A DNA stretch of 64,000 nucleotides, taken from contig JASFHP010000007.1 of NCBI GenBank assembly GCA_050123155.1, forward strand, positions 32,032 through 96,031, given 5' to 3'. A program made the translations under genes and the position numbers. Within the stretch, counting starts at the first letter, position 1. Each line of letters opens with the position of its first letter. Shown here in pieces: positions 21,019 through 39,863 of the stretch. The notes below the pieces were generated by a model. The model was not told the DNA's origin, made no database searches, and saw nothing but the letters and a program-made list of their open reading frames with translations. The stretch is from Candidatus Bathyarchaeota archaeon. GTDB taxonomy: Archaea; Thermoproteota; Bathyarchaeia; Bathyarchaeales; Bathyarchaeaceae.

Positions 21019-21276
21019 TTCTGGTCTACAAAATATTGCCTCTCCGCATTTATTTAACCATAAGTGAGAGTAGCATAGAATTTTTGTTAAATTTTAACCA
21101 GAACCCCAGCAATCTACAAAAAGAAGCTACTGAGGGAGTCGCGGGGATTTGCACAGGGGACAAGTGTTGATGTCAACTGTAGAAAACCTCGTAACTCCCC
21201 TTTTTTATGAGTCGTGTTGTTAATCGATTTTTGGAAAAACATCACATTTAAATCAGTATTTCATGCTAAGAAAGTC

Positions 21277-22413: not shown

Positions 22414-22484
22414 GTTTTCTCCCATTTTTCAAAAGAATAAAAAAAGAAAATGGATTTTTAGGGGGCAGTTGAGGTTAGCTACGG

Positions 22485-23675
22485 CTATTTTTTTGGTGTG
22501 TGTTTTTTCTTGTAGGTGAATAATCCAAAAGCTGCGAACATAGTTGCGGCAGCCATTATGGATCCAATCGCAACTTCTGGAATTACGAAGAATCCGGCTG
22601 TAACCTCAATGTCGCTGTCATCTAAAGCGTCGATTCCCTCATCGTATATGCCATTGTTGTTAACGTCTACTATAATGTCGTATTTTCCTGGAGTTGCACC
22701 ATTCCACACTGGGTAAGCATCCATTATCGCTCCCCCACTATCTGTCATCACCGTAGTTTTAGCAACATAACTGGGTATTGTCATGCCGTCAGTCCAGTCT
22801 ACATCACTCACAACCTGCACCTCGTAAGATGTTTCTGGCGAAAAGCCGCTTCCCACAACGCATACCTCATCGCCTACGCCAAACGTATCCGTTGTCATCC
22901 AAGTAGTTGAATCAATAAGTATAGCACTCTCGATGGTCGGAGGACCTGATGCAATTATGATGTCGCCAAAGCCGCTTGCTGCATCCGCACTCCATCCAGT
23001 CATGTCAACGGGCCAATCGCCCAAATCGTGGCTGTCATCATAGGAGACTATGTTGAAACCTACTGTGTCTCCTAGAGCTAGGCTGAAGTCATGAGGACCA
23101 GTTTCTGTCTCTTCCGCGTTTACGTAGCCGTAGTCTCCGCTGTTTAGGGGATGCGAAAACTCAAAGATTCTGATTGTGCCGTCCGTGCCCATTGCCCCTT
23201 CGCCGTCAACGGTGCCTCCATAATTTTCGTCGTCTGTGGGCCAGCTTCCCATATTAAACATGTCTAGGAATTCTCCTTGTGCTGGGGTCGAACTAGTATG
23301 TCGGAGCTGTAGGACGTCGTCGCCGATTTCTAGTAACCCATCGTCGTCGTTGTCAAAAATGAAGGTTATCCAGTCCGCAGATCCAGCTGTGTAGTAGTCG
23401 TGTCTTTTGATTGCTAAGTACAAATTGTTTAGGTCATTCATGACGTAAAGGGTATGGCTAATGGGATCAGGTGAGCCTCCAGTGTGTGGAGCAACGAAGT
23501 CTATGGTGTCTGCGTCGTCCCACTCGCCTGCACTCATGATGCCATCTATGGTTGGCGGATTCGATGTGAAAGCCGACAATTCCACTCCTGAACCATTTGC
23601 TTTAACGAATGCAATCGGAATAATTGTAGCAAAAGTCAACAAAGTTAACAGTAAAAATGCCTTTTTTTCACTCAA
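22485..23675 (-). CDS. Secreted DOMON/CBM9-like surface protein with IPE-TM-basic anchor
   Basis: Signal peptide, PPTIDGIMSAGEWDDA, C-terminal IPEVAIG-TM-KKKH. Confidence 0.75.
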   Translation of the reverse strand: MSEKKAFLLLTLLTFATIIPIAFVKANGSGVELSAFTSNPPTIDGIMSAGEWDDADTIDFVAPHTGGSPDPISHTLYVMNDLNNLYLAIKRHDYYTAGSADWITFIFDNDDDGLLEIGDDVLQLRHTSSTPAQGEFLDMFNMGSWPTDDENYGGTVDGEGAMGTDGTIRIFEFSHPLNSGDYGYVNAEETETGPHDFSLALGDTVGFNIVSYDDSHDLGDWPVDMTGWSADAASGFGDIIIASGPPTIESAILIDSTTWMTTDTFGVGDEVCVVGSGFSPETSYEVQVVSDVDWTDGMTIPSYVAKTTVMTDSGGAIMDAYPVWNGATPGKYDIIVDVNNNGIYDEGIDALDDSDIEVTAGFFVIPEVAIGSIMAAATMFAAFGLFTYKKKHTPKK

Positions 23676-23829
23676 TTTGCTTTACCTTAACCAAAATTTT
23701 GGTTTAGTTATATTTAAATTGAATGAAAGTTGTTTATAGAAAAGTTGTTTTGTTTTTCTAAATGTTGGTTAGTGGGATAAAACAAATGAGTAAGTTATGT
23801 TAACGTATTCTTGTGTGGAGGTTAGGTTG

Positions 23830-24210
23830 ATGGGTGAAGAAAAGGTAGACATTCAAGAGTTAGCCCAAAAAGTTGATGAACTTCTTAATTTACTGAATGT
23901 AATCGCAGGGGACCTAGCTGAAGTTTCCAAGTCCCTCAAAGCGGTGAGTGGACCAGCCGTTGCTCCTGCAGTTTCTGCTGCATCCTCTGGAAAAAAGCGT
24001 GACGTCAACGATGTTAAGCAGGCGTTTTCTTCAGAGCTTGCAGGTATGTTACTCTTTGAGGAGAATGGAGCCTTCATTATTGTGAAGCCGCGGAGATTCT
24101 TGGGGTCAGACAATTTCGCTAAAATTGCGTCTATTGTACGCGACCTTGGTGGAGAATACATCAGTGCAGGAAGAAATTCCCATTTCAAGGTTCCGAAGGA
24201 AATGGGTTAA
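23830..24210 (+). CDS. Hypothetical protein
   Basis: Coiled-coil N-terminus, Ala/Pro linker, compact C-terminal domain (LGGEYISAG). Confidence 0.7.
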   Translation: MGEEKVDIQELAQKVDELLNLLNVIAGDLAEVSKSLKAVSGPAVAPAVSAASSGKKRDVNDVKQAFSSELAGMLLFEENGAFIIVKPRRFLGSDNFAKIASIVRDLGGEYISAGRNSHFKVPKEMG

Positions 24211-24348
24211 CAGTAAAAAAACTGTTTTCAACAATCTTCTGTTATTAGTCCTCTAATATGATTCCGCGTTAGAATGTTTACAGTTTGTTTGCTTGTGTTC
24301 GTTCACAGGACATATAGTACGTTGGAAGAGTGGAAAATAGGCTGTGAG

Positions 24349-24600
24349 TTAACGTTTGTTTGAGTGCGTTTTAGCCACTATTAATGTGGCTGTTTGGAAG
24401 ATGTCGGGTAGCACCCTCAGTTTATCTGTTAGGAACTGGTTCAGATCTTCCAGATTTTCGGTGCACACTTTTATGATGGCGTCGTATTCGCCGTACATCA
24501 TGCTTACTCTCTTTACTTCGTTGAAGTGAGAAACTTTTTCAAGTATATTCTTCTCGGTGCCCGGATTTAACGTAACCAACACGTAAGCTGAGACAGCCAT
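24349..24600 (-). CDS. Stand-alone Lrp/AsnC ligand-binding (RAM) domain protein
   Basis: AYVLV...MYGEYDAIIKV...TATLIV; no HTH. Confidence 0.88.
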   Translation of the reverse strand: MAVSAYVLVTLNPGTEKNILEKVSHFNEVKRVSMMYGEYDAIIKVCTENLEDLNQFLTDKLRVLPDIFQTATLIVAKTHSNKR

Positions 24601-24707
24601 CTGACTTCCTCGCCTAACAAACTTTTGCACGGAAGAACTTTAACCTTTTGCTTGCCCGCACAGAAAGGCAGGCAGGAAACATGGGTCAGACTATAGTTTA
24701 CAGCAGC

Positions 24708-25685
24708 TCACGAAGTTTTATCCAGCAAATCTTGAGCAAAAGCGGCTGCTCCGATTACTCCCGCATCAGCACCCAGCGAAGCCTTCACAATTTTCAGTTC
24801 TTCAACAGAAGCCTCTAACGCCATAGTTGGAACAATATCCTTCACTATCTGGACCAACTTAGGGATTCCCTCGATAACACCGCCTCCGAGAACCATAACA
24901 CAAGGATTAAAGGCGTTAACGATGCTGACCACTCCAGCAGCCAAGTATCGCCCAGTCTCCTTCACCAACAGCCGAGACAACAAATCGCCTTCACGGTAAG
25001 CTTGACTAACCGTAACCGCCGTAACTTGCTTAATGCCGCCTGCCAAAGCCAGCAAACGCCGCCCCTCATTCGACAAGGCTCTGATAGTCTCTTGCGCACG
25101 CTCAGCGATTGCCCAACCACCAACATAAGCCTCCAAGCAACCCTTGTTAGGGCAATGGCACTGTCGTCCATCAAAAACAATGGTGATGTGACCTAACTCG
25201 CCGCCACTGTTAGTGCAACCAGATAGAAGCTTTCCTCCAGTTATGACTCCCCCGCCTACGCCTGTGCCCACAAAAAGAACAGCCAAATCGTCTACGCCTC
25301 GCCCTGCACCGTAACGCCACTCACCCCAAGTAGCTGCATTAACATCGTTAGTCACAACTACAGGTAACCCATGCTGTTTCTCCAGTTTCTTCTTTAAGGG
25401 AACGTTCCGCCAACCCAAATTTTGAGAACCACGCACAACTCCTCTCAGGTCCACTTGGGCGGCTACGCCGATTCCAAGAGCTTTAGCTTCTTGACCAGAT
25501 TTGCTGAGACAAGCTTCCACACCAGCTGAAATGTCGGCGATAACCTTTCCTGGTTCCTTTGAGTCATGAATCACAGATTTGTGAGCAGACAAAAGGCACC
25601 CATCAGCATCCACTAGTCCCACATTAAGTTTGGTGCCTCCAAGGTCAACACCCAACGTAAGCGAATCCATCTTCTGCATCACCAT
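24708..25685 (-). CDS. ROK family sugar kinase (glucokinase-like)
   Basis: GVDLGGTK, TNDVNAA, GTGVGGG, GELGH, CHCPNKGCLE. Confidence 0.93.
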   Translation of the reverse strand: MVMQKMDSLTLGVDLGGTKLNVGLVDADGCLLSAHKSVIHDSKEPGKVIADISAGVEACLSKSGQEAKALGIGVAAQVDLRGVVRGSQNLGWRNVPLKKKLEKQHGLPVVVTNDVNAATWGEWRYGAGRGVDDLAVLFVGTGVGGGVITGGKLLSGCTNSGGELGHITIVFDGRQCHCPNKGCLEAYVGGWAIAERAQETIRALSNEGRRLLALAGGIKQVTAVTVSQAYREGDLLSRLLVKETGRYLAAGVVSIVNAFNPCVMVLGGGVIEGIPKLVQIVKDIVPTMALEASVEELKIVKASLGADAGVIGAAAFAQDLLDKTS

Positions 25686-25883
25686 TTTTCCATTTATACA
25701 CTACACTTAGCATGCAAGACATAAACTGCGTTAAACCTGTTTAACTCAGTTGCGACATTGAGCTAATGATTGATACTAAGAAAAGCAGATTAATTTTTCT
25801 ACAAAACAAAAAAACAATAGACACACGATTACGTGATGAACAAAAATTAGAAGAAAAAAGAAAAAGATTCCTTTATGGCATCA

Positions 25884-27515
25884 CTACATTGGAGGCATTC
25901 CGCCCGGAGGAGCACCTTCTTTTGGTTTCGTCGATGCAATAACATCGTCGATTCTCAGGATCATGGAGGCAACTTCTGCGGCTGACTTCATGGCCTGCTC
26001 CTTAACTTTCAGGGGCTCAACAACTCCTTTCTCGTAGCTGTTAACTATTTTGCCCTTGAAAACGTCAACGCCCATCAGATGACCGTTCTTCTTGTCATGA
26101 GCTGCTCTCAACCCGACAAGGATGTCTATGGACTCTAGACCCGCGTTTTCAGCCAGCGTCTTCGGCACTATTTCCAGCGAATCAGCGAACGCTTCTATAG
26201 CAAGCTGTTCCCTGCCGCCGACCTTTGTAGCGTAGCCGCGAAGAACTTTTGCGATTTCAGCTTCTGTTGCTCCTCCGCCAGCCACAATTTTGTTATCTTC
26301 AACCACATCAGCAACCACTGACAGAGCGTCGTTCATGGCTCTGTCCGCTTCGTCAACCATTCTTTCTAGGCCAGCGCGGATGAGAATAGCAACTGATCGG
26401 GGTTCTTTGCATTTCTCCACAAAGATCATTTTGTCATCCCCGACTTTACGTTCTTCCACGAGTCCTGCTTCTCCCAAGTCTTTACTGTTCAAGTCGTCCA
26501 GCTTTGTGATGACTTTTCCTCCAGTTGCTCTGGCCAGTTTCTCCATGTCTGATTGCTTTACTCTTCTTGCAGCCATGATTCCTTTCTTTGCTAGGAAGTG
26601 CTGAGCCATGTCGTCGATGCCCTTCTGACAGAATATAACTGTTGCACCCGAGGAGCTGATCTTTTGCACCATCTCTTTGAGCATGGTTGTTTCTTTGTCC
26701 AAAAAGGCCTGCATCTGAGTGGGGTCTCGTATCCTAATTTCTGATGAGAACTCGGTTTTTTCCACCTCTAGAGGAGAGTCGAGAAGCGCGATTTTCGCTT
26801 TTTCACTTCGTTTGGGCATGCCTGCGTGAACAATCTCTTTGTCGATGATTATGCCTCTGATAAGTTCTGTGTCGTAGAGGCTTTTTCCCTCTTTCTTAAC
26901 TCTCTGAATGTTATCAATGTCCGCTATCGTTTTATCGCCCCGTTTCTCAGCGATCAGTTTAACGGCATCAATGGTGATGTCAGACAGGTGACCACGAGCA
27001 TCACCCACAGCTTTGCTTCCCATAGAAGTCATGGAAACTTTCTTCAGGGCTGCACGATCATCAATGTCAACGGTTATCGCCAATTTGGCTAAAGCTTTCA
27101 CAGCCTGTTCAACGGCTTTTCTGTATCCCTGCACAATGATTGTTGGGTGAATATTCTGTTCCAGCAACCCCTCTGCTTTCTGTAGAAGCTCTCCAGACAA
27201 GATTACAGCAGTGGTGGTTCCGTCGCCCACCATGTCATCCTGGGTTTTGGCTACTTCCACCATCATCTTTGCAGCGGGATGCTGAACGTCTATCTCGTCC
27301 AGTATCGCTGCGCCGTCGTTGGTTATGGTTATGTCGCCTAGGCCGTCAATGAGCATTTTGTCCATGCCGCGAGGACCAAGAGTGCTCCTTAAAACTTCGG
27401 CGATGACTTTGGCAGCCATTATGTTATTTTTCTGTGCTTCTCTTCCACGTTTACGTGATGTTCCTTCTTTAAGGATAAGAACAGGTTGTCCACCCTGTGA
27501 GGTTAAATATGCCAT
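25884..27515 (-). CDS. ths: Thermosome (group II chaperonin) subunit
   Basis: [36 protein letters not shown]. Confidence 0.97.
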
Positions 27516-27746
27516 ACAAATCATTCCTATTTTGCAGCTGAATTTCTAGCTACTGCAACTTTCATCTGGAATATAAAGTTTACTAACTCATTTTTCTTTC
27601 CAAGGTTCTATGTTAAAAAACAGCGAAGAGAGAGCGAGTAACGTCATATTTGGGTCCCAAATTACATGCTGTGCTTCAGGTCAAAGGGAGTTGTGCAATA
27701 AAAGATAATAGGAGCCTGCAAAATTAACTCGGTGAGTGTTTAAACC

Positions 27747-28115
27747 ATGAGTGTTTCTCGCGTACCCATCAGATTCATTATTGAGAACGTTGGAAAAGCG
27801 GAAGGAGACCTTGTTCGCATCAGTTCTCCGCGGACTACAGATGCAATAATCAGGCAGCTTCCAATTGAGGGTCGCGCAGCCATCTGGCAACAAGAAGTTT
27901 ACTTTGAGATTCCCGTGAAAATGGGCAACGAAAAGGCTAAGCCAACAGTGGAAAAGGGAACCTTAGCCTACTGGCCTATGGGAAGCGCCCTCTGCATCTT
28001 CTACGGCGAAACCCAGCCATACAGCCCCGTCAACATAATCGGGCAAGTGACCGAAAATCTGGAACTGTTCGAACAAGTCAAAAGCGGAACAAAAATCATC
28101 GTAGAAAAAAGATAG
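27747..28115 (+). CDS. Cyclophilin-like fold protein (DUF369/TM1367-like)
   Basis: WQQEVYF, GTLAYWPMGSALCIFYG, PVNIIG. Confidence 0.88.
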   Translation: MSVSRVPIRFIIENVGKAEGDLVRISSPRTTDAIIRQLPIEGRAAIWQQEVYFEIPVKMGNEKAKPTVEKGTLAYWPMGSALCIFYGETQPYSPVNIIGQVTENLELFEQVKSGTKIIVEKR

Positions 28116-28350
28116 TTGCTTCACTATTCGGTGTTGAACCCACCACTAACGGAAGAGCTGAAAAACTCCAAAAGTTGATGAAATCAAAAGATTTTATAAA
28201 TTGAAAAAGGGCTCGCTGAGGCTTCTGCACAGGCGGTTTGGGGAATGAAAAATGAAACTTGGAAAGCAACTTAATAAGTTTCATTTTCCTGTGTCGAAGC
28301 CATTCAGCTTCCCTGTTCCTCCTAAATCAAACCAAAAGAAAAGCCTTTTT

Positions 28351-28400
28351 GTCAAGAAATCTTGACCAAAACATGGTTCGTTTTGTCAAGAAATCTTGAC
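28351..28400. promoter_or_regulatory. Two tandem palindromes GTCAAGA-AA-TCTTGAC, 34 bp apart
   Basis: Identical copies at 28351..28366 and 28385..28400. Confidence 0.75.
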
Positions 28401-28529
28401 TTGGACATAACCAAGCATTTTGAGTAGGTTAAAGAATCTTCACAAGAAAGAAGTGGTTTTGTGCACGCACACGCATCTCCCTCAACTTTCTTTTTGAGAG
28501 TTAAAAACTTAAACACAAACCCAAACGAA

Positions 28530-28564
28530 ATTTCTGTTAACGAGTAGCAAAATTTTAAAAACAA
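28530..28564 (+). promoter_or_regulatory. 35-bp promoter block (TATA-like TTTTAAAA), identical to 31290..31324
   Basis: ATTTCTGTTAACGAGTAGCAAAATTTTAAAAACAA occurs before both propeller genes. Confidence 0.75.
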
Positions 28565-28601
28565 CATAGGATATATGCTGTCTGCAATGGGTTCAAGGAG
28601 T

Positions 28602-28706
28602 CTTTGACAACTGGCTGCATAGCAAAGCAATGATTTGGGGATTAGAATGTCTGACAATCCTTTGCACAAACCACATGTTTCTGACTGATCGGTTGTCAAA
28701 GGCAAC
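28602..28706 (+). ncRNA. Candidate structured cis-regulatory 5' leader
   Basis: 28602..28614 pairs with 28689..28701 (13 bp including G-U); alternative local hairpin GTTGTC-AAA-GGCAAC; homolog at 31363..31417. Confidence 0.55.
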
Positions 28707-28740
28707 TAGAACTCAATAATGAAACAAAAAAGGAGAAAAA

Positions 28741-31224
28741 ATGAAAATGCTAAGAAATAGACACAAAGTTTCAACGATTATTTTGCTAACAGTTCTAACG
28801 CTTTCGTTGACTCTTACAATTCTTCCGATGGTCAATGCTCAGGGAACAAAAACCTACCCATATATCGATGCTGTACCTAATCCTGTACAAGTAAACCAAC
28901 CAGTGTTATTCCATGTTGGAATTTCAGCACAAACCTCCAATGTAGCAATGGGCTGGGAAGGCTTAAGCATAACAATCGAGAGACCTGACGGCCACACTGA
29001 AGTAATCAGTGACATCAGGACTGATTCGACTGGAGGAACTGGAGTTCCTTACACTCCCGATGTTATTGGAACATACATCGTACAAGGCCACTTCCCTGAA
29101 CAAGGTAATATGTTAGCTAGCGACAGTGATAAAATAGAACTCATAGTACAAGAAGAGCCACTAGAATACTATCCCGAACATGCACTTCCAGACGAATACT
29201 GGACTCGTCCAATAAACGCACAATTCTATACATGGAAAGAGATTTCCGGTGATTGGCTGAGACCCGCAGGAAGCTACACAATGCCGCCAATTCCAAAGTA
29301 TCATTCTGGCAACGCTGATGCACCTGAAACAGGGCACATTCTTTGGACAAAACCATACACGCAAGGAGGACTAGCCTCATACGACCTTGGTAACGTACAA
29401 TACGAAATGGGAGATGCATACGAGCTCAAATTTATGGGCTCAGTGATAATAAGCGGAGTACTATACTACAACAGCTACGAAAATCAAGGTAGCGATCCTG
29501 AACTAGAGCAAGATGTCATTGCAGTAGACTTAAAAACAGGTGAAGAACTTTGGGTAAGAAACTGGAATAATGAAAGACTGGCTTTCGGACAAACTTTCTT
29601 CTGGGACTCGTATAACTATCACGGAGTTTTCGGTTACCTCTGGACTGAGAGCGGTACAACATGGAAAGCATACGATCCATTAACTGGGCGCTGGGAATAT
29701 ACAATGACAAACGTTCCATCCGGCTGGAACATGTATGGACCAAAAGGCGAAATCTATCGATACACCGTAAACACTGGGGCAGGAACACTGTCATTATGGA
29801 ACTCGAGTAGTGTAGTTTCAGAAGCAGGTAGCTGGAGACCACAAGGAAATACTTACGACGCCTCAAGCGGAATCGAATGGACCAAGGACATACCAACAGA
29901 CCTGCCTGGACAAGTTTGCTCATACCATCTATTTGACAAAATAGTCGGCAGTAGTGCTGGCGGACTTTTCGGCGCCACATCTCCTGACGTCACCAATTGG
30001 GCAATCGACGTTTCTCCAGGAAATGAAGGAAACATTGTTTTCCGTAAAACTGAAACATTGCCAGTAAGCGGTTTGACTTTGGTTTACTGTGAAGCTGTTC
30101 CAGAGAATGATGTTCTGATATTATCAGCAAAAGAGAACATAAAATACTATGGTTTCTCCCTGACCACTGGTGACCTGAAATGGGAAACTGAACCAGAAGG
30201 CTACTTAGCTTTCTATGACAAATGGTATGGTCCTGCTTACGGTTATGGGAAATTCTTCACTGGCAGAGTTAGCGGAGTGGTAACTTGCTACGACCTTGAA
30301 ACTGGAGATGAACTGTGGCATTATGATGTGCTAGACAAGTACCATGAAAACACTTGGGGCCCCAATCACCAAATTGAATACCATTTCCTGGCTGATGGAA
30401 AAATCTGTTTATCCTATGGAGAGCATTCGCCAATTAATCCTCTGCCTAGAGGTGGACCGTTAGTCGTTCTTGATGTCGAAAATGGAACAGTAATCTGGGA
30501 ACTCAGTTGGGCAAACAACTGGTGGGGCGGACATGTGATGATCGGAGACAGCACGATGGTAGGATTAAACGCATACGATAACCGCTTATACGCCATGGGT
30601 AAAGGTCCAAGCTCAACCTCAGTTTCAATCCAAAACGACGTTATTTCACTCGGAAGCAGTGTTATGATAAAGGGCACAGTTATGGATGTTTCTCCAGGCA
30701 CAAAACAGGCAGCTCTACAATTACGATTCCCGAATGGTCTCCCAGCAGTAGCTGACGAGTCAATGACCGACTGGATGCAGTACGCCTACATGCAGTATGA
30801 GCGCCCAGAAGACGCTGAAGGCGTTGAAGTATTCCTGAAAATACAAGATCCTAATGGCGACTGGTACTCAGCCACTGTTACAGCCGATGAAAATGGCGTG
30901 TTCAGCCACATGTGGGCTCCTGCCATTGTCGGCGAGTACCAGGTCACTGCGATGTTCGAAGGCTCCGAATCATACTTCGCATCACAAGCAACAACCAGCT
31001 TTGGCGTAGACGAAGCAGCAGCAGTAGATGTTCCTAGCGCAGCAGAGATTGCTGATACCACTGCAAGCAGACTTCCAGCGTATCCAGCAGCTTCAGACAT
31101 AGCACAAGAAACAGTGAACAAACTGCCAGCATACCTGACAATCGACTTGATCGTCCTGATAATCGCTGTCGTAGTCTTGGTCATCGGCTTACTGGCCTAC
31201 ATGGCACTCAGAAAACAGAAATAA
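28741..31224 (+). CDS. Surface PQQ-like beta-propeller protein with C-terminal TM anchor
   Basis: Signal peptide; repeated A.D..TG..LW motifs (AVDLKTGEELW, CYDLETGDELW); C-terminal Ig-like domain, TM and RKQK. Confidence 0.85.
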   Translation: MKMLRNRHKVSTIILLTVLTLSLTLTILPMVNAQGTKTYPYIDAVPNPVQVNQPVLFHVGISAQTSNVAMGWEGLSITIERPDGHTEVISDIRTDSTGGTGVPYTPDVIGTYIVQGHFPEQGNMLASDSDKIELIVQEEPLEYYPEHALPDEYWTRPINAQFYTWKEISGDWLRPAGSYTMPPIPKYHSGNADAPETGHILWTKPYTQGGLASYDLGNVQYEMGDAYELKFMGSVIISGVLYYNSYENQGSDPELEQDVIAVDLKTGEELWVRNWNNERLAFGQTFFWDSYNYHGVFGYLWTESGTTWKAYDPLTGRWEYTMTNVPSGWNMYGPKGEIYRYTVNTGAGTLSLWNSSSVVSEAGSWRPQGNTYDASSGIEWTKDIPTDLPGQVCSYHLFDKIVGSSAGGLFGATSPDVTNWAIDVSPGNEGNIVFRKTETLPVSGLTLVYCEAVPENDVLILSAKENIKYYGFSLTTGDLKWETEPEGYLAFYDKWYGPAYGYGKFFTGRVSGVVTCYDLETGDELWHYDVLDKYHENTWGPNHQIEYHFLADGKICLSYGEHSPINPLPRGGPLVVLDVENGTVIWELSWANNWWGGHVMIGDSTMVGLNAYDNRLYAMGKGPSSTSVSIQNDVISLGSSVMIKGTVMDVSPGTKQAALQLRFPNGLPAVADESMTDWMQYAYMQYERPEDAEGVEVFLKIQDPNGDWYSATVTADENGVFSHMWAPAIVGEYQVTAMFEGSESYFASQATTSFGVDEAAAVDVPSAAEIADTTASRLPAYPAASDIAQETVNKLPAYLTIDLIVLIIAVVVLVIGLLAYMALRKQK

Positions 31225-31289
31225 ACCCACATATTCTCCCCCTTTTTCTTTTTTATGAAGCAAGAAAGGTTAAGGAAACAGAAAACATC

Positions 31290-31324
31290 ATTTCTGTTAA
31301 CGAGTAGCAAAATTTTAAAAACAA
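31290..31324 (+). promoter_or_regulatory. Second copy of the 35-bp promoter block
   Basis: Identical to 28530..28564. Confidence 0.75.
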
Positions 31325-31362
31325 AATGGGGGTATAGCTCTTTGCTATGAGTTTGTGGGGGT

Positions 31363-31417
31363 CTATGGCAGCTAGCTTATGCATGCACGTGCTGACCGAT
31401 CAGTTGTCAAAGGCAAC
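31363..31417 (+). ncRNA. Second, shorter copy of the candidate structured leader
   Basis: 31363..31373 pairs with 31402..31412 (10/11); 26-nt 3' motif differs from 28681..28706 at 2 positions. Confidence 0.5.
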
Positions 31418-31441
31418 CAAAACTCAACAAAAAATGAAGAG

Positions 31442-33871
31442 ATGAAAAAAATGAAAAAACTGTATTGTAAAACAAAACTTCTCACTATTGCATTAGTTCT
31501 AGCGTTAACTTTTGCTGCACTGACAGCGAGCATTTCATACGTTGTAGCTCAAGAAACTGCAACCCGTTGCTTTTTGTCTGTACAACCCAACCCTGTTGGA
31601 CGTGGACAAATTGTCACCGTTAGTGTGATGGTTCAACCTGTTCCTCCATCAATGAGTGACGTCTACCATGACGTGAAATTGGATATCACAAAACCTGACG
31701 GAACAATTGAAACAACTGTGAAGGACAGTTGGTCAACCGGAGGCTACTACATCCAATACATACCTGATATGGCTGGCATATACTACTTGCAGATGAGCTA
31801 TCCCGGCGAAACCTTTGCACAAAACCGAATTCGAAGTGCCAGTGAATCTCCTGTGACTGAGCTTGTTGTGCAAGAAGATCCAATACCAAGTTGGCCTGAA
31901 ACTCCACCTACTGGCGATTTCTGGGATCGTCCCGTAAGCGCTGACCTCAGAGAATGGGCTCATATTTCCGGAAACTGGTTACAGAGCGGCTATAACACTA
32001 CCTACCAAATGGGTCGAAGCCCTTCGGCTTATAATCCATACAGCACAGCACCGCGGTCTTCACATGTAGTGTGGACTGAGGAGTTGGGGTTAGGTGGTCT
32101 CGCCGGAGGAGAATTTGGTAGTGCATCATACTATGGAGGACTAGTATACGAAAACTATCTTAAGCCACCTATAGTCATGAACGGCCTGATTTATTACAAT
32201 CTGTACTTTGATTCGTCGCCTTTCAGTGCTTTCGTTTGTGTCGATTTGCGTACCGGAGAAGAGCTATGGCGTGTGGAGGGTGCAAATGTGGATGTCGGAC
32301 AGCTGTGGGATTACCGATCACCCAACCAATATGGAGTCATCCCGTTTCTGTGGGAGACCGGCTCTACCTATAATATGTATGATGCTTTCACAGGAAGATT
32401 CATATGCAATTTCACGGGCGCCTCGACAGGTCGTATTGTATTCGATGATGACGGGACAATGCTAGTGTACATGCTTAACGCACGAAGCGGTCAGGTGTCT
32501 ATGTGGAACTCAACCAAAGCCTTTGAAGAGAATGGTTTGATAAGCGGTTTCGGCGGCGTAGGGATGTTCAGATTCCGTACAGGGACGTATGATTGGCAGC
32601 GCGGAATCGAATGGGAGGTAACAACGGATATTGCGAGTATGACAGTAGGGGGCAGAACCTACTATCCAAATGCGTTCTCAGTTTCAGGCGATGTTATATT
32701 AGCTTCTGCAGGACTCGGATCAAGCCAAACAACATTACATGCTGGATATAGTGCAACGAACGGTTCATTATTGTGGTTTTATGCGCGCGACCCACCGGAT
32801 ATGCCACTTATCAGAACTGCTGTTGGAGACGGCGTCTTCGCCCTACACAACACGGTGAGTACAAGATTTCACGGTTACGATGTAGCTACAGGGGAGCCAC
32901 TATGGGAAAGTGATGAACTTGTGTATCCTTGGGGTACATACATTGGGCTTTCAATGCTGATTGCAGACGAGAAACTCCTCGCTGGTTCCTACGATGGATA
33001 CATGCACGCCTTTGACATTGACACAGGGAAGGAGTTGTGGAAGTACTCTAGCGGAGACGCTAACATCGAAACTGCTACGGGTACCTGGCCCTTCTTCTAT
33101 TCTTTCATGGCTGCTGACGGGGTGGTTTTTGCGCCCACCGGTGAACATTCTGCCTCACAGCCCTTGTACCGTGGGGCAAAGCTGCACGCAATCGACATGG
33201 AAACAGGAGAGGGTGTATGGAACCTGACAGGCTGGTATGTAAATGCTGCTCTTGTTGACGGTTACTTGCTGACACACAACGCCTACACCAATCAGATGTA
33301 TTGTATAGGAAAAGGACAAAGCGCCACGACAGTAACTGCACCCCAAACGGAAATAGAACTAGGAGAGAGCGTCATAATTAGAGGCACAGTCACTGACCAG
33401 AGTCCAGCGCTCAAGGACACACCAGCCATCTCAGATGAGTGCATGAGTGCATGGATGGAGTACAAGTTACTGCAGCATCCAATCCCTGAAGACGCAACAG
33501 GCGTTACAGTGAAGTTAACCGCTGTTTTCCCCAACGGTGAAACACAGGAGATAGGCACGGCTACAAGCGACATGTACGGCAACTTCGGAAAAAGCTGGAC
33601 TCCAGAAGTGGAAGGGGATTACCGGGTAATCGCCACTTTCGAGGGCACAGCATCGTACGGAAGCTCGTCAGACTCAACCTACCTGACAGTGGGTCCAGCA
33701 GCAGAAGAGGCTCCTAGCGCAGAAGAGATTGCTCAGACAACACTAACCCAGATGCCAGCATATCCAGAAATTCCCGCATACCTGCCAATAGACCTGATCA
33801 TACTGATAATCGCTGCCGTCGTCTTGGTCATAGGCTTACTGGCCTATGTGGCACTCAGAAAACAGAAATAA
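31442..33871 (+). CDS. Second PQQ-like beta-propeller surface protein
   Basis: Same architecture as 28741 (CVDLRTGEELW, AFDIDTGKELW); near-identical C-terminal anchor. Confidence 0.85.
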   Translation: MKKMKKLYCKTKLLTIALVLALTFAALTASISYVVAQETATRCFLSVQPNPVGRGQIVTVSVMVQPVPPSMSDVYHDVKLDITKPDGTIETTVKDSWSTGGYYIQYIPDMAGIYYLQMSYPGETFAQNRIRSASESPVTELVVQEDPIPSWPETPPTGDFWDRPVSADLREWAHISGNWLQSGYNTTYQMGRSPSAYNPYSTAPRSSHVVWTEELGLGGLAGGEFGSASYYGGLVYENYLKPPIVMNGLIYYNLYFDSSPFSAFVCVDLRTGEELWRVEGANVDVGQLWDYRSPNQYGVIPFLWETGSTYNMYDAFTGRFICNFTGASTGRIVFDDDGTMLVYMLNARSGQVSMWNSTKAFEENGLISGFGGVGMFRFRTGTYDWQRGIEWEVTTDIASMTVGGRTYYPNAFSVSGDVILASAGLGSSQTTLHAGYSATNGSLLWFYARDPPDMPLIRTAVGDGVFALHNTVSTRFHGYDVATGEPLWESDELVYPWGTYIGLSMLIADEKLLAGSYDGYMHAFDIDTGKELWKYSSGDANIETATGTWPFFYSFMAADGVVFAPTGEHSASQPLYRGAKLHAIDMETGEGVWNLTGWYVNAALVDGYLLTHNAYTNQMYCIGKGQSATTVTAPQTEIELGESVIIRGTVTDQSPALKDTPAISDECMSAWMEYKLLQHPIPEDATGVTVKLTAVFPNGETQEIGTATSDMYGNFGKSWTPEVEGDYRVIATFEGTASYGSSSDSTYLTVGPAAEEAPSAEEIAQTTLTQMPAYPEIPAYLPIDLIILIIAAVVLVIGLLAYVALRKQK

Positions 33872-34063
33872 ACCCACATAATCCCCCTTTTCTTTTTTAT
33901 GGACCAAGAAAGGTTAAGGAAGCAGTGTAAACATTGAAGGAAGTGCTGTTCTTTGTCGGCTGCCCCTCAATTCCAAATCTTATTGTATTTACAATCTTGA
34001 TCGTGTGTTCTGAAAGATTTTATTAGACCTGTGTTTTGACTTTCTTGAATGAGGGAAACATGA

Positions 34064-34255
34064 TTGCCGTCAGCTAATCCTGATAGACCCTTCGTCACTT
34101 TGAGTCATTCCATAAAGGAGAGAGAAGCAAAACAACTCAGGTTCGCCAAATGCCCAAATTGTGGACGTGTGACGCCCTATAGGCTCGGCTCCTTGAAAGG
34201 AAAACGCCTGATTTGTAAAACTTGTAAGAAGCCGATTGCATCAACCCGCCTATGA
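34064..34255 (+). CDS. Small zinc-ribbon protein
   Basis: CPNC...CKTC; GAGGGA RBS 7 nt before the TTG. Confidence 0.45.
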   Translation: MPSANPDRPFVTLSHSIKEREAKQLRFAKCPNCGRVTPYRLGSLKGKRLICKTCKKPIASTRL

Positions 34256-34428
34256 ACTGACTCAACACACGCTTAGATTTAGTTGTGCAGCCCAGAACAA
34301 TTGAGTGAGCAGTGCAAAGAGTCACGGAATTTGCTGTTCACTAGAGGCTGGAGATGTCTCCACATCTTACACAAACTCTCCCTTTTTGCGAGTTAAAATT
34401 TTGGTCCCAACCACAAAAATTGTCCCTA

Positions 34429-34444
34429 GTCAAGAATTCTTGAT
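34429..34444. promoter_or_regulatory. Single copy of the GTCAAG palindrome (GTCAAGAATTCTTGAT)
   Basis: Lies about 50 bp upstream of the 34493 gene. Confidence 0.65.
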
Positions 34445-34492
34445 AAAAAAGCTTTTCTATTCACCCGTTAAAGGACTTCATGGTGCCCACAA

Positions 34493-36118
34493 GTGCTGAA
34501 AAAGAAGGGCATGAAATCTAGGGCTTTCCTGTGCGTCATTTTCACAATTGCGGTTGCCTTGGTTTGTGCCGCAGTTTTTGTTTGTCAACCAGTTTCTAGC
34601 TGCTACGGTCCCCATATTACTGCTAGCATATCGGCGACTGAAATTTACATACACGAGAGCGTCACTGTGAACGGAACAGTTTGTCTTGGACTCGAAGATG
34701 ATGAAGGGCTGAACCTGACGGTAAGGGTGACCTTCGTTAAGCCAGACTACAATTGGATAGATCAGGTTGTTGAAGTTGACAACGTGACTGGAGAATTCTC
34801 GGCGACCCAGCAACTTGACATGGCAGGATACTGGAACATATTCCCAATATACGGTCACATAAATGACAGACTAGGCGTAACTGTGATTGATCCTTCAACT
34901 GACCCGTCCAGTCCACTGCCAACTGTTGAGTCGCCATTTAACCCGAACCTTCTAGTGCTGACTGCAGCCATAACAACAGTAAGCATCGGTGTAGTATGGG
35001 CAGTGACTGGACTACGGAAAAAGACCCGAAAAATCAGTTCTTGGAGGCTGTTCATCCAAATCTTGCTGGTATTCTTGATTTTCTTCGGCATATTCGTTGA
35101 TCACGAAATACTGCCGCGACCAGCCAGCAAAATTCCCGTACACGAACTTATAGTTGAACCCGAGATTTTTGGAGTAAAAATGGCTGATGGTCTTCCAGTT
35201 CCATTCTTTGGCTGCTACTATCCCTGCGGCAGAACCGTAACTTGTGCCCTCTGGGAAATTCAAACCTACATCTTTCCGTTCTGGGAAAACACCCGCGGCT
35301 GGGGTGTAGAATACAACTCCACTGGACCAGCCAGGTTGGCAATCGTTTTCGCAGCAATCATACTGTTGTCTGTTCTTCTGGGCAAATCCTTCTGTGGATG
35401 GGTCTGTCCCTTCGGCTTGTACATGGATTTGCTTTCATACCTGAGGAAAGCTTTGAAGATACCGCACCGAGATTTTTCAGAAAGCTTCAACAAAAAATTT
35501 TATCAGTTCGGGTACGTGATTCTGGCTCTCCTAATAGTGATAAGCGTCATTTTCGGCTCAGAAGCCATAGTGAATGCTCAGTTGGTTCCTGGAACAGAAG
35601 AAGGGGGTTTTGTTTACCAGTACTTCTCTGCGCCTTTCTGTCAAGTCTGCCCGATGAAACCATTTTGTGTGCTGCTAGAATCCTCAGTTGGATTGATACG
35701 TCCAGAGTGGATTTCCCAAGTAACAACAGGTGACTTCTATGAATTAGGTTATTACGTGACTTCAATAAATCTAATCGTGCTGGGCATAGTCACCGTCGTG
35801 TCATTCTTCTATAGACGTGCATGGTGCAGAATCTGCCCGCTAGGCGCCCTGATCGCTCTATTTAGTCGCTTTCCTCCATTCAAATGGGTGTCAGTTCTCC
35901 GCTTAAAAAAGATGGAAGAGAAATGTACAAAATGCGGAATCTGCAAGAGAGTTTGTCCAACGCAGGTCACTGAAGTGTATGATCAGAAGGGCGGAGACAT
36001 CATGTCATCCAACTGCATAATGTGCATGCGCTGTGTCGAAATGTGCCCTTATGAGGATGCTCTACAATTGAAAGCTGCAGGAAAAACCGTTTTGAGGTCG
36101 AGAAACTGGCTAGAATAA
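34493..36118 (+). CDS. Polytopic 4Fe-4S binding membrane protein (NapH/MauN-like) with an N-terminal extracellular Ig-like domain
   Basis: FCGWVCPFG, FCQVCP, WCRICPLG, CTKCGICKRVCP, CIMCMRCVEMCP; several TM helices. Confidence 0.85.
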   Translation: MLKKKGMKSRAFLCVIFTIAVALVCAAVFVCQPVSSCYGPHITASISATEIYIHESVTVNGTVCLGLEDDEGLNLTVRVTFVKPDYNWIDQVVEVDNVTGEFSATQQLDMAGYWNIFPIYGHINDRLGVTVIDPSTDPSSPLPTVESPFNPNLLVLTAAITTVSIGVVWAVTGLRKKTRKISSWRLFIQILLVFLIFFGIFVDHEILPRPASKIPVHELIVEPEIFGVKMADGLPVPFFGCYYPCGRTVTCALWEIQTYIFPFWENTRGWGVEYNSTGPARLAIVFAAIILLSVLLGKSFCGWVCPFGLYMDLLSYLRKALKIPHRDFSESFNKKFYQFGYVILALLIVISVIFGSEAIVNAQLVPGTEEGGFVYQYFSAPFCQVCPMKPFCVLLESSVGLIRPEWISQVTTGDFYELGYYVTSINLIVLGIVTVVSFFYRRAWCRICPLGALIALFSRFPPFKWVSVLRLKKMEEKCTKCGICKRVCPTQVTEVYDQKGGDIMSSNCIMCMRCVEMCPYEDALQLKAAGKTVLRSRNWLE

Positions 36119-36142
36119 AAACTGAAATGGGTTGAAAGTTCT

Positions 36143-37039
36143 GTGAAGCAAGCAAAAGCGATTTTTTTAACAATATTACCGCTAGTCAGCTATTTTTTGG
36201 TGCCTGTTTTGTTAGTTCACGGTTCTGGGCTCATTTTTATTAGAGCTGATGGAAGCATTGAAGGAACAAACATGATTCACCGTAGTGGAAACATTTACAG
36301 TTTCGCAGGCGACATCGACGAGTCATATGGAATAATTGTGGAAAAAAGCGACATCATAATTGATGGTAAAGGTCACACGCTGCAGTCAACCCCCAGAATT
36401 CTGCCAGTTGGTTCATGGGACTTTGGGATAGAGTTAGCGAACAGCACAAGTGGTCATGTAACAATCAAAAACTTGAAGATTCTGGGCTTCAACATTGGAG
36501 TCTACATTTGGACAACAAACAACACTGTGGAATGTAACACAATATTGGGCGGCAACGTGGGCATCTTTCTCGCCGAGTCCCCGAACACAGTTGTCGGCAA
36601 CTACATAGCGGATAACATCGAAGGCGTATTCTTGGGTCCGTTACCAGACACTCACAAAACTGTCTACAACATATTCTATCACAACAGTTTCGTTAACAAC
36701 ACAAGACAGGTCTATGACTGCGAATGCACTGACCCACACACCATCCAGCACCTTAACATCTGGGACAACGGCACAAGCGGCAATTACTGGAGCGACTATA
36801 ACGGAACCGACGCTGACGAAGATGGATTAGGCGATACTCCATACCAAGTCAGTAACGATGACAACGACACACATCCCCTCATGGCTCCCCCTGCATTTCC
36901 TTCAAACAGAAAAGATGGCTTCCTAGGCACAAACATACCACCAGAACTGGGTCTAGCCATCACCGCAGGAGCAGTTATCACAATATCAACAACAGCTTAT
37001 GTGGTTTTCAAGCGCAAAAAATCCAAAAACAACAAGTAA
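36143..37039 (+). CDS. NosD-like right-handed parallel beta-helix surface protein
   Basis: Signal peptide, N-rich repeats, GNYWSDYNGTDADEDGLGDTPY, C-terminal TM + basic tail. Confidence 0.8.
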   Translation: MKQAKAIFLTILPLVSYFLVPVLLVHGSGLIFIRADGSIEGTNMIHRSGNIYSFAGDIDESYGIIVEKSDIIIDGKGHTLQSTPRILPVGSWDFGIELANSTSGHVTIKNLKILGFNIGVYIWTTNNTVECNTILGGNVGIFLAESPNTVVGNYIADNIEGVFLGPLPDTHKTVYNIFYHNSFVNNTRQVYDCECTDPHTIQHLNIWDNGTSGNYWSDYNGTDADEDGLGDTPYQVSNDDNDTHPLMAPPAFPSNRKDGFLGTNIPPELGLAITAGAVITISTTAYVVFKRKKSKNNK

Positions 37040-37047
37040 CGCATCTG

Positions 37048-37743: not shown

Positions 37744-37772
37744 AGACCTGCAAGTTTCTCTCGGATGCTTAT

Positions 37773-38489: not shown

Positions 38490-38505
38490 TTATCCATTTC
38501 TCCGT

Positions 38506-39663: not shown

Positions 39664-39813
39664 CCTGTCAACCTCGCTTGATTCTCAACTGAGAGTGTTT
39701 CAGGAAGAGAAACAAATACACAACAAAGAACCGGCATCCGAATAAGACCTGTCAATGTTTTTCCCACCATGGACCCATCATTCTGTTTGGTGAGTGAACA
39801 AAAAAGGGTTTTT

Positions 39814-39863
39814 GTCAAGAAAGCTTGACTAAAATCTTGGTTGCTTGGTCAAGAAACCTTTAC
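39814..39863. promoter_or_regulatory. Two tandem GTCAAG palindromes, 34 bp apart, upstream of the ABC operon
   Basis: GTCAAGAAAGCTTGAC at 39814..39829 and GTCAAGAAACCTTTAC at 39848..39863. Confidence 0.7.

What the first reader, a model, noticed from the sequence alone, without database searches (positions are those of the whole stretch)
28530..31417. Switch-like structured 5' leader conserved before both PQQ-propeller genes
Seen: an identical 35-bp promoter block is followed by homologous leaders. Leader 1: CTTTGACAACTGG (28602..28614) pairs with TCGGTTGTCAAAG (28689..28701). Leader 2: CTATGGCAGCT (31363..31373) pairs with AGTTGTCAAAG (31402..31412); its substitutions mostly keep pairing (A-U to G-U twice, U-G to U-A, one mismatch). 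The enclosed region differs in length and is itself paired in leader 1 (GCAAAG/CTTTGC, GGATT/AATCC). The same 3' strand can instead form a mutually exclusive local hairpin, GTTGTC-AAA-GGCAAC, conserved in both, 25-35 nt before the start codon. I recognise no known riboswitch. Inference: a novel archaeal riboswitch or attenuator-like RNA.
Basis: partly seen in the sequence, partly recalled or inferred. Interest (0 to 1): 0.72.

Follow-up and report, generated by a model that had tools for sequence, protein, structure and literature searches.

The report
Conserved 5' hairpin leader, Bathyarchaeia surface genes
Two neighbouring genes for membrane-anchored propeller surface proteins of an uncultured Bathyarchaeia archaeon are each preceded by a transcribed leader that folds into one long hairpin starting at the very 5' end of the mRNA; it is a real, conserved and undescribed RNA element, but it looks like an mRNA-protecting 5' stem-loop, not a riboswitch.

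Summary
Each leader folds into one long, imperfect hairpin of about 22-25 bp, and the rest of the leader is its apical part. Its 5' arm begins 30-35 nt after a BRE/TATA box, which is the predicted transcription start. Its 3' arm ends 20-35 nt before the start codon. The Shine-Dalgarno sequence and AUG stay in an A-rich, unpaired tail.

I found about 25 homologous leaders. All lie upstream of paralogues of this propeller family (42-100% amino-acid identity) in Bathyarchaeia genomes and metagenomes. Every one folds the same way, with compensatory changes. In a sequence-only alignment, 81.5% of cells pair, against 23-53% when partners are slid, and 12 of 25 pairs change on both sides.

Metatranscriptome contigs cover leader 1 from 28602 onward and nothing upstream. 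Both genes dominate RNA coverage across 20 kb. No Rfam family matches.

The "switch" is not supported. The local hairpin shows no covariation, costs 6.5-9.5 kcal/mol and never touches the ribosome-binding site. The apical region is deleted in short forms. A conserved upstream ORF is rejected. The identical 35-bp block is best explained by promoter gene conversion.

Most likely function is a 5'-terminal stabilising stem-loop for highly expressed surface-protein mRNAs. This function is inferred, not shown.

The parts
28530..28564 (+). Promoter block of gene 1. BRE/TATA-like GCAAAA-TTTTAAAA, with the TATA at 28553-28560, preceded by a conserved upstream element TTCTGTTAAC..TAGC.
   Evidence: Exact duplicate of 31290-31324. 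Homologous promoters are found in relatives. The TATA lies 30-35 nt before the first paired base in 22 of 23 leaders.
28584..28587 (+). Predicted transcription start of gene 1 (plus or minus 3 nt). Inferred, not mapped.
   Evidence: Inferred from TATA spacing and my own knowledge that the archaeal TATA centre lies near -26/-27. RNA contigs begin at 28602, 28640, 28650 and 28693, and none lies upstream.
28588..28613 (+). Leader 1, 5' arm of the closing stem: P1 28588-28594, P2 28596-28597, P3/P4 28600-28613.
   Evidence: RNAfold MFE and centroid. Pair counts on alignments A4 and A6.
28614..28689 (+). Leader 1, variable apical region. Contains local helices GCAAAG/CTTTGC and GGATT/AATCC, the motif UUUGGGGA at 28634-28641 and the run GUUUCUGAC at 28677-28685.
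   Evidence: No consensus structure appears across long forms. The region is absent from short forms.
28690..28715 (+). Leader 1, 3' arm of the closing stem, which is the more conserved strand. It includes the local-hairpin sequence GTTGTCAAAGGCAAC at 28692-28706.
   Evidence: Identity is 86% on the 3' strand against 76% on the 5' strand.
28716..28740 (+). A-rich unpaired linker with the Shine-Dalgarno GGAG at 28732-28735.
   Evidence: The same layout is seen in all relatives.
28741..31224 (+). Gene 1: an 827-aa protein with signal peptide, Ig-like domain, PQQ_2/BamB-like beta-propeller, Big_3_5 Ig domain and a C-terminal transmembrane anchor.
   Evidence: The closest named homologues are from Candidatus Bathyarchaeota or Bathyarchaeum.
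31225..31281 (+). Region after the gene 1 stop codon, with the T-rich tract CCCCTTTTTCTTTTTTAT (a likely terminator). It is 85-91% identical to 33872-33925.
   Evidence: D4, D14. RNA coverage falls to zero at 31225 in four runs.
31290..31324 (+). Promoter block of gene 2, with the TATA at 31313-31320. It is a chimera: like leader 1 up to the TATA, and like the short-form leaders after it.
   Evidence: plus comparison with L085, L084, L092 and L104.
31348..31373 (+). Leader 2, 5' arm: P1 31348-31354, P2 31356-31358, P3 31361-31364, P4 31366-31373.
   Evidence: CM score 73.9 bits.
31374..31401 (+). Leader 2, short apical region with a small hairpin (GCAUGCACGUGC).
31402..31426 (+). Leader 2, 3' arm: P4 31402-31409, P3 31411-31414, P2 31417-31419, P1 31420-31426.
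31427..31450 (+). A-rich linker with the SD-like GAAGAG at 31436-31441. In-frame ATGs lie at 31442 and 31451.
   Evidence: The ORF listing extends to an upstream in-frame ATG at 31379, which lies inside the hairpin and is unlikely to be the real start.
31451..33871 (+). Gene 2: an 806-aa paralogue with the same architecture, 33% identical to gene 1.

Best explanation
This is a family of cis-acting 5' untranslated leaders, 85-200 nt long. They belong to a subfamily of Bathyarchaeia genes for membrane-anchored Ig/beta-propeller surface proteins. A canonical BRE/TATA promoter starts transcription 0-5 nt before the 5' arm (inferred). The transcript then folds into one long imperfect hairpin made of P1 UGRGUUN/NAACUCA, P2 GG/CC, P3 GYCU/AGGC and P4 of about 8-12 bp, so the 5' end of the mRNA is base-paired. 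The hairpin ends 20-35 nt before the start codon, and the SD and AUG stay open in an A-rich tail. The most likely role is that of a 5'-terminal protective stem-loop. It would shield the mRNA from 5'-end-dependent decay and present a free ribosome-binding site, supporting high, steady expression of an abundant envelope protein. Shown here: the sequence family, the conserved fold with compensatory changes, its strand and position, and transcription of the leader. Inferred: the exact 5' end and the stabilising function. The 100% identity of the 35-bp block is best explained by gene conversion between the two tandem promoters, not by the RNA.
For: 1. Fold: all 24 leaders fold by MFE into a hairpin whose first paired base is nt 1-6 and whose closing pair spans the whole piece. 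The mean z-score is -2.7.
2. Covariation on a sequence-only MAFFT alignment of 22 leaders: 81.5% of cells are paired, against 23.5-52.7% with slid partners. Twelve of 25 pairs change on both sides. The covariation score is 0.224 against 0.187, with 0/500 shuffles as high.
3. The CM-fitted alignment agrees: 82.9% paired and 11 pairs with both-side changes.
4. Cognate 5'/3' arms pair better than swapped ones: -27.2 against -22.8 +/- 0.74 kcal/mol, 0/10,000 permutations.
5. 14% of paired cells are G-U, which fits RNA on the sense strand. The CM scores the + strand at 39-77 bits and the - strand at 37 bits or less.
6. All nhmmer and CM hits in 1.31 Mb lie just upstream of propeller genes, on the + strand.
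7. The TATA-to-stem distance is 30-35 nt in 22 of 23 leaders.
8. Four metatranscriptome assemblies cover leader 1 from 28602, 28640, 28650 and 28693 with no coverage upstream.
9. Within 20 kb, RNA contigs map almost only to the two genes, and the thermosome gene has almost none.
10. The SD and AUG are never paired.
11. Precedent: 5' stem-loops stabilise ompA and aprE mRNAs (PMC7509114), and the slpA S-layer mRNA has a stabilising 5'-UTR stem-loop that leaves the RBS exposed (PMC10221546). Cultivated Bathyarchaeum has an S-layer (PMC10477458).
Against: No 5' end has been mapped. The longest exact RNA contig starts at 28602, so the P1-P3 5' arm (28588-28601) is not shown to be transcribed. No half-life or expression measurement exists, and contig depth is a poor proxy for expression. 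The covariation support is moderate, and the sequences are related: pairs with both-side changes are 12 against 7.9 expected (7/500 shuffles), and further pair types reach 36/500. The 3' arm is more conserved than the 5' arm (86% against 76% identity). Long forms also share unpaired-looking motifs (UUUGGGGA; AAACCAUnGAUUUCU) that a plain stabiliser does not explain. Nothing is known about 5'-end-dependent mRNA decay in Bathyarchaeia. It is not shown that these proteins are the S-layer or otherwise abundant. A published structure-prediction survey lists Bathyarchaeota S-layer proteins of similar length, but I could not compare them.
Confidence: 0.5

Rival explanations
1. Regulatory protein-binding leader. 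An RNA-binding protein, possibly the gene product's own regulator or a global factor, recognises the conserved 3' arm, the purine-rich internal loop or the long-form interior motifs. It would control translation or decay, in the way ribosomal-protein leaders or the Thermus slpA 5' UTR are autoregulated.
For: The 3' arm is more conserved than pairing alone requires (86% against 76% identity). Unpaired A's are invariant at alignment columns 50, 66, 78 and 80. Long forms share the stretches UUUGGGGA and AAACCAUnGAUUUCU.
Against: No known protein-binding motif was seen on inspection. The P2/P3 internal loop is a symmetric 2x2 loop, not a K-turn or a bulge-helix-bulge. The short forms lack the interior motifs yet are conserved in at least six contigs. 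Part of the strand asymmetry is explained by G-U tolerance: 40 G(5')-U(3') cells against 20 U-G cells.
Confidence: 0.2
2. Riboswitch or attenuator. A ligand bound in the enclosed region would shift the 3' arm between the long stem and the local hairpin GUUGUC-AAA-GGCAAC.
For: It is a conserved structured leader with no Rfam match. The local hairpin can be drawn in 84% of cells. Long forms have some conserved interior sequence.
Against: The local hairpin shows no covariation, and its pair 55-67 is broken in 13 of 22 leaders while column 55 covaries with column 28 of the long stem. The energy penalty is 6.5-9.5 kcal/mol. There is no SD sequestration and no U-tract terminator. The interior has no consensus fold and is deleted in short forms.
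Confidence: 0.08
3. No RNA function. The similarity would be a by-product of tandem duplication and gene conversion, or the inverted repeat would be a DNA-level operator.
For: The leader 2 promoter is a chimera. It matches leader 1 up to the TATA and matches the short-form leaders after it, so conversion does occur here. The 3' gene ends and terminators are also homogenised. A TF-type palindrome family, GTCAAGAAATCTTGAC, is present nearby (D9).
Against: The fold is kept in leaders whose two arms both differ in sequence (L089, L123, L168, L121, L086, L091). There are both-side compensatory changes. 14% of pairs are G-U. The arms lie 60-190 bp apart at variable distances, which does not fit an operator. 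The region is transcribed.
Confidence: 0.07
4. The leader encodes a small upstream peptide (for example ...LTDQLSKATKTQ) whose translation regulates the downstream gene.
For: An ATG-initiated ORF in one frame runs through the 3' arm in about half of the leaders, including both window leaders.
Against: Variable columns by codon position are 13, 8 and 5, so there is no third-position excess. There are 1-nt indels in L092 and L090 and a stop codon inside the 'peptide' in L104. The ORF falls in another frame or has no ATG at all in L082a, L030, L168 and L121.
Confidence: 0.03
5. The hairpin is cut off and persists as a stable 5'-UTR-derived small RNA acting in trans.
For: It is a very stable, conserved hairpin directly after a strong promoter. 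RNA contigs over the leader are short.
Against: There is no U-tract or processing motif after the stem. RNA contigs run continuously from the leader into the coding region, at 28602-28857 and 28640-29086. No copies occur away from propeller genes.
Confidence: 0.05

Closest known systems
5'-terminal stabiliser stem-loops of bacterial mRNAs (E. coli ompA 5' UTR, B. subtilis aprE leader; reviewed in PMC7509114)
   Same: The hairpin sits at the extreme 5' end of a long leader. A single-stranded ribosome-binding region lies downstream. The downstream genes encode abundant exported or envelope proteins.
   Different: The host is an archaeon. The stem is much longer (about 22-25 bp plus a variable apical part of 30-150 nt). 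There is no sequence relationship. The stabilising effect has not been tested here.
S-layer gene 5' UTRs (Lactobacillus slpA; PMC10221546)
   Same: A strong promoter is followed by a long 5' UTR whose stable stem-loop stabilises the transcript and leaves the RBS exposed. The gene encodes a cell-surface protein.
   Different: It is not shown that the propeller proteins are S-layer proteins. The domain of life is different and the sequences are unrelated.
Riboswitches (Rfam families, including the few found in archaea such as TPP and fluoride)
   Same: It is a conserved, structured cis leader upstream of a coding gene.
   Different: No Rfam match. No conserved ligand-binding core is shared by all members. 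There is no expression platform. The alternative hairpin is not conserved by covariation.
Protein-bound autoregulatory leaders (ribosomal-protein leaders; archaeal L7Ae K-turn leaders; my own knowledge)
   Same: One strand and a purine-rich internal loop are more conserved than pairing requires.
   Different: No K-turn or other recognised protein-binding motif was seen, and no candidate binder is known.

Membership tests
Any Rfam 15 family | Score at or above the family's gathering threshold in cmscan | tested here: not met
   Across the whole window, only a tRNA passes. A permissive scan of 28450-31500 gives two chance-level hits, at E 4.2 and 8.7, with scores of 19 and 16 bits against thresholds of 51 and 44.
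Riboswitch | A conserved aptamer core, meaning invariant junction or loop nucleotides and a conserved fold in the enclosed region in all members | tested here: not met
   RNAalifold on 12 long forms recovers only the closing stem. Short forms lack about 50 nt of the interior.
Riboswitch | An expression platform, meaning an alternative fold that hides the SD/AUG or forms a terminator | tested here: not met
   The SD and AUG are unpaired both in the MFE and with the local hairpin forced. An A-rich tract, not a U-rich one, follows the stem.
Riboswitch | Mutually exclusive helices that are both evolutionarily maintained | tested here: not met
   The long stem covaries. The local hairpin does not, and it is broken at pair 55-67 in 13 of 22 leaders.
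Riboswitch | Specific ligand binding | not testable with these tools
   This needs in-line probing, SHAPE or ITC.
5'-terminal stabiliser stem-loop | The stem begins within a few nucleotides of the transcript's 5' end | tested here: inconclusive
   TATA-to-stem spacing is 30-35 nt in 22 of 23 leaders, which predicts 0-5 unpaired nt. RNA contigs reach only to 28602, and no 5'-end mapping exists.
5'-terminal stabiliser stem-loop | The structure, more than the sequence, is conserved | tested here: met
5'-terminal stabiliser stem-loop | The ribosome-binding site is left accessible downstream | tested here: met
5'-terminal stabiliser stem-loop | Removing or disrupting the stem shortens the mRNA half-life | not testable with these tools
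   There is only indirect support: the two genes dominate metatranscriptome contigs within 20 kb.
Upstream ORF / leader peptide | A conserved reading frame with a coding substitution pattern | tested here: not met
   Variable columns by codon position are 13/8/5. There are frameshift indels, and the ATG is missing in several members.
Archaeal bulge-helix-bulge processing stem / K-turn | A 3-nt bulge, 4-bp helix and 3-nt bulge, or a 3-nt bulge followed by tandem sheared G-A pairs | tested here: not met
   By inspection of the folds, the internal loops are 1x0-1, 2x2 and 1x1, and none has this geometry.

The most novel reading that the evidence does not exclude
The long-form leaders (leader 1 and its relatives) could be a true regulatory RNA. 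The conserved interior motifs (UUUGGGGA, AAACCAUnGAUUUCU) and the purine-rich internal loop would bind a metabolite or a dedicated protein, and so tune production of a major Bathyarchaeia envelope protein. The short forms would then be constitutive, degenerate derivatives. That would be the first lineage-specific riboregulator described in this abundant, nearly uncultured archaeal class.
Probability: 0.12. Interest if true: 0.75.

Novelty: new member of a known kind. Interest (0 to 1): 0.42.

Why it matters
Bathyarchaeia are among the most abundant archaea in sediments, and almost nothing is known about how they control gene expression. This leader is a conserved, expressed RNA element with some covariation support, and it is absent from Rfam. 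It marks a set of highly transcribed surface-protein genes. Together with its promoter, it gives a defined candidate "high-expression cassette": BRE/TATA, a 5' hairpin, an A-rich linker and an SD. If the stabiliser role holds, it would be one of the few documented cases of 5'-end protection by structure in archaeal mRNAs, and it could be useful for expression tools. It also corrects an over-reading: conserved alternative pairings drawn from two paralogues are not evidence for a switch.

Tried and rejected
1. Rfam at gathering and permissive thresholds found nothing.
2. Exact-motif search for the 3' arm and the promoter in 80 distant genome loci found nothing. The family is confined to a subclade, and the CM (R1) found no further members among 170 sources. 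The CM also missed some seed long forms, presumably because of their long loop insertions.
3. The upstream-ORF idea is rejected.
4. Comparing MFE of the plus and minus strands is not decisive. The plus strand is more stable in only 15 of 24 leaders. G-U content and CM scores were used instead.
5. A full-length MAFFT alignment misplaced the 5' arm of the short forms (A3). I therefore aligned 'mini-leaders' made of the first 33 and last 40 nt (A4). This is a manipulation, but it uses sequence only.
6. A pairing between the interior GGGGA run and the UUUCU run was considered. It holds in some leaders (the L002 MFE) but not in others (by inspection of the sequences), so it is not claimed.
7. A crude TATA-based scan for analogous hairpins before other paralogues was uninformative. 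94 of 163 regions had no motif match, and the two extra 'hits' did not look comparable.
8. Sequence search of gene 1 against the PDB found no relative.
9. Metatranscriptome coverage of leader 2 showed only cross-mapping pieces and one related contig, so there is no direct evidence for leader 2 itself.
Full report
**What is in the window.** The two ORFs at 28741-31224 and 31451-33871 (+ strand) are tandem paralogues. Each has a signal peptide, an Ig-like domain, a PQQ_2/BamB-like beta-propeller, a Big_3_5 Ig domain and a C-terminal transmembrane anchor. They are only 33% identical as protein. Homologues number over a thousand, and those that carry a name are from Candidatus Bathyarchaeota, Bathyarchaeia or Bathyarchaeum. 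The neighbouring genes are a thermosome, a ROK kinase and a cyclophilin-like protein. No other propeller gene lies in the window.

**Checking the observation.**
- The 35-bp block is present exactly twice, with none in shuffles. It contains a BRE/TATA-like GCAAAA-TTTTAAAA.
- The 3' segment CTGACnGATCrGTTGTCAAAGGCAAC is shared by both leaders.
Each leader is one long hairpin.
- Leader 1 pairs 28588-28613 with 28690-28715 (-41.7 kcal/mol, z = -3.06). Leader 2 pairs 31348-31373 with 31402-31426 (-29.9 kcal/mol, z = -2.90).
- The stem has four helices separated by small internal loops: P1 UGRGUUN/NAACUCA (7 bp), P2 (2-3 bp), P3 GYCU/AGGC (4 bp) and P4 (8-12 bp).

**Relatives.** I fetched DNA around close homologues and ran protein-guided scans of genome and metagenome contigs. 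Together with the window, this gave 170 sequences (169 fetched loci plus the window; 1.31 Mb) and about 196 propeller gene starts, of which 176 had enough upstream DNA to extract.
- Homologous leaders precede about 25 of these genes, whose products are 42-100% identical to gene 1 or 2.
- There are short forms of about 85 nt, such as leader 2, L084, L085, L090, L092 and L104.
- There are long forms of 120-200 nt, such as leader 1, L081, L082a, L089, L001, L095, L098, L106, L018, L152, L153, L030, L123, L168, L002 and L121.
- L086 and L091 are more remote.
- An HMM of the 3' arm and a covariance model of the stem hit only these places. All are on the coding strand, just upstream of a propeller gene, and nowhere else in 1.31 Mb.

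**Is the stem an RNA structure?**
- All 24 leaders fold on their own into the same closing hairpin. The first paired base is nt 1-6, the closing pair spans essentially the whole piece, and the mean z-score is -2.7.
- On a sequence-only MAFFT alignment of 22 leaders (first 33 plus last 40 nt, A4), the 25-pair stem is paired in 81.5% of cells. With partners slid by 1-3 columns the figure is 23.5-52.7%.
- Twelve pairs carry changes on both sides, against 7.9 +/- 1.6 in shuffles (7/500). The covariation score is 0.224 against 0.187 (0/500).
- An Infernal-fitted alignment gives the same picture: 82.9% paired and 11 both-side pairs. It includes one minus-strand row.
- Examples of compensation: the seventh P1 pair occurs as C-G, U-A, G-C and U-G, and column 28/55 occurs as G-C (11), A-U (5) and G-U (3).
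- In L123, UAAGU/ACUUA replaces UGAGU/ACUCA. In L115, L089, L168, L121, L086 and L091 both arms have different sequences yet still pair.
- Cognate arms pair better than swapped arms: -27.2 against -22.8 +/- 0.74 kcal/mol, 0/10,000 permutations.
- 14% of paired cells are G-U. The model scores the sense strand at 39-77 bits and the antisense strand at 37 bits or less.
- The statistics are moderate, because the sequences are related and the shuffle counts are not probabilities. Several independent lines agree, however.

**Is it transcribed, and where does the RNA start?**
- Four independent metatranscriptome assemblies contain contigs running from the leader into gene 1. They cover 28602-28857 (100% identical), 28640-29086, 28650-28799 and 28693 onward. 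There is no coverage between 28200 and 28601.
- Coverage is also zero across the gene 1 / gene 2 intergenic promoter region, 31226-31351.
- Within 20000-39999, RNA contigs map almost only to the two propeller genes. The thermosome gene has next to none. Contig depth is a poor measure, but the contrast points to abundant transcripts.
- No 5' end is mapped.
- The inference that the RNA begins at the base of the stem rests on geometry. The TATA-like heptamer starts 30-35 nt before the first paired base in 22 of 23 leaders. From my own knowledge, archaeal TATA boxes are centred near -26/-27.

**Why it is not a switch.**
- The local hairpin GUUGYC-AAA-GGCAAC can be drawn in 84% of cells but shows no covariation, with one both-side change and 103/500 shuffles as good.
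- Its second pair is broken in 13 of 22 leaders by a U-to-C change. That same change is compensated by A-to-G in the long-range partner.
- On its own the hairpin is worth -3.8 kcal/mol. Forcing it costs +9.5 kcal/mol in leader 1 and +6.5 in leader 2, and its equilibrium probability is 1e-7 to 4e-5.
- Neither conformation touches the SD or the start codon. These lie in an A-rich unpaired tail in every member, and no U-tract follows the stem.
- The enclosed region has no consensus fold and is largely deleted in the short forms.
- No Rfam family matches.

**Other readings.**
- Upstream ORF: one running through the 3' arm exists in about half of the leaders. It lacks a coding substitution pattern (variable columns 13/8/5 by codon position), suffers 1-nt indels and an internal stop, and some leaders contain no ATG at all.
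- DNA operator: this does not fit arms 60-190 bp apart, the G-U pairs or the transcription evidence.
- Protein-binding role: this cannot be excluded. The 3' arm is more conserved than the 5' arm (86% against 76%), four unpaired A's are nearly invariant, and long forms share UUUGGGGA and AAACCAUnGAUUUCU stretches.

**The identical 35 bp.** The promoter of leader 2 is a chimera. Up to the TATA box it equals leader 1. From the TATA box onward it matches the short-form leaders of other genomes (L085, L084, L092, L104), whose own upstream halves differ from it at about seven positions. The 90%-identical orthologue of gene 2 in L082 and L083 carries a different, long-form leader. The 3' gene ends and terminator regions of the two window genes are also 85-91% identical. 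Gene conversion between the tandem units is therefore the simplest explanation for the perfect block. Selection on a strong promoter may also contribute.

**Most likely mechanism.** The layout is a strong promoter, a hairpin that sequesters the 5' end, an open A-rich linker with an SD, and a gene for an exported, membrane-anchored protein. This is the layout of the bacterial 5' stabilisers ompA and aprE (PMC7509114) and of S-layer gene leaders such as Lactobacillus slpA. In slpA the stem-loop stabilises the mRNA and leaves the RBS exposed (PMC10221546). A cultivated Bathyarchaeum has an S-layer (PMC10477458). Whether these propeller proteins belong to it is unknown. I therefore favour a cis-acting 5'-terminal protective stem-loop, with confidence about 0.5. 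A protein-bound regulatory leader is the main rival at about 0.2, and a riboswitch stands at about 0.08.

**Verdict.** The element is real and conserved, and it is absent from Rfam. It is a new member of a known kind (a structured 5'-UTR stem-loop) in a poorly studied archaeal class.

Noticed in passing
window 28334-28400; also 39797-39863 and 34428-34445; L081 3600-3660; L085 1099-1150: There are pairs of perfect palindromes, TTTGTCAAGAAATCTTGAC (GTCAAGA-AA-TCTTGAC), 150-250 bp upstream of the leader promoter. A similar pair lies 11.5 kb away (78% identical) and a related GTCAAGAATTCTTGA lies before the 4Fe-4S gene. The 2-nt spacer rules out an RNA hairpin, so this looks like the operator of a dimeric transcription factor. 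It is conserved in two related contigs.
   Followed up: partly
window 31121-31281 vs 33768-33925: The last ~100 nt of both genes (the transmembrane anchor ...LRKQK) and the T-rich terminator region after them are 85-91% identical, although the proteins are 33% identical overall. This points to homogenisation (gene conversion) or strong constraint at the 3' ends as well. RNA contigs end at 31224-31225 and at 33898.
   Followed up: partly
window 31290-31345 compared with L085 1365-1420 and window 28530-28585: The gene 2 promoter and leader are a recombinant. Upstream of the TATA they match leader 1, and downstream they match the short-form leaders found before gene-1-like genes in other genomes. 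The 90% orthologue of gene 2 (L082/L083) has a different, long-form leader. Leaders appear to be exchanged between paralogues as modules.
   Followed up: partly
window 28536-28552 and homologous promoters (L084, L085, L089, L090, L092): A conserved element, TTCTGTTAA(N4-5)TAG(C/A)A, lies directly upstream of the BRE/TATA. It could be an imperfect inverted repeat (TTCTGTT / TTCTAAC) and an activator site.
   Followed up: no
window 31379-31450: The mechanical ORF of gene 2 starts at an in-frame ATG at 31379, inside the hairpin. The likely real starts are 31442 or 31451, after the SD-like GAAGAG. Automated annotation of relatives shows the same over-extension; P0003, for example, is called at 858 aa.
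   Followed up: partly
window 28659-28693 (metatranscriptome run X25): One RNA-derived contig joins the reverse complement of the leader interior (about 28659-28679, from a close relative) directly to 28693 onward. This is a fold-back junction of the kind made by cDNA snap-back or assembly at a hairpin.
   Followed up: no
L064 about 7300-7390 (a paralogue 30% identical): An unrelated short hairpin, GUUGAACGA...UCGUUCAA, sits about 25 nt after a TATA-like box and before an A-rich linker with GGAG and the ATG. This is the same architecture without sequence homology. It hints that a 5'-proximal stem-loop may be a general feature of this gene family.
   Followed up: no
window 55739-57715 vs 61107-63083; 540-625 vs 1556-1641; 1065-1184 vs 2099-2218: There are further large direct repeats, 78-93% identical with spacings of 5368 and about 1020 nt. 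They indicate other tandemly duplicated genes in the window.
   Followed up: no
window 28634-28641 and 28668-28685; long-form leaders in L001, L089, L095, L098, L106, L115, L123, L152, L002: Two stretches inside the hairpin of long forms are conserved in sequence but have no consensus pairing: UUUGGGGA(W) and AAACCAUnGAUUUCUrnC. They pair with each other in some leaders (L002) but not in others. They remain unexplained.
   Followed up: partly
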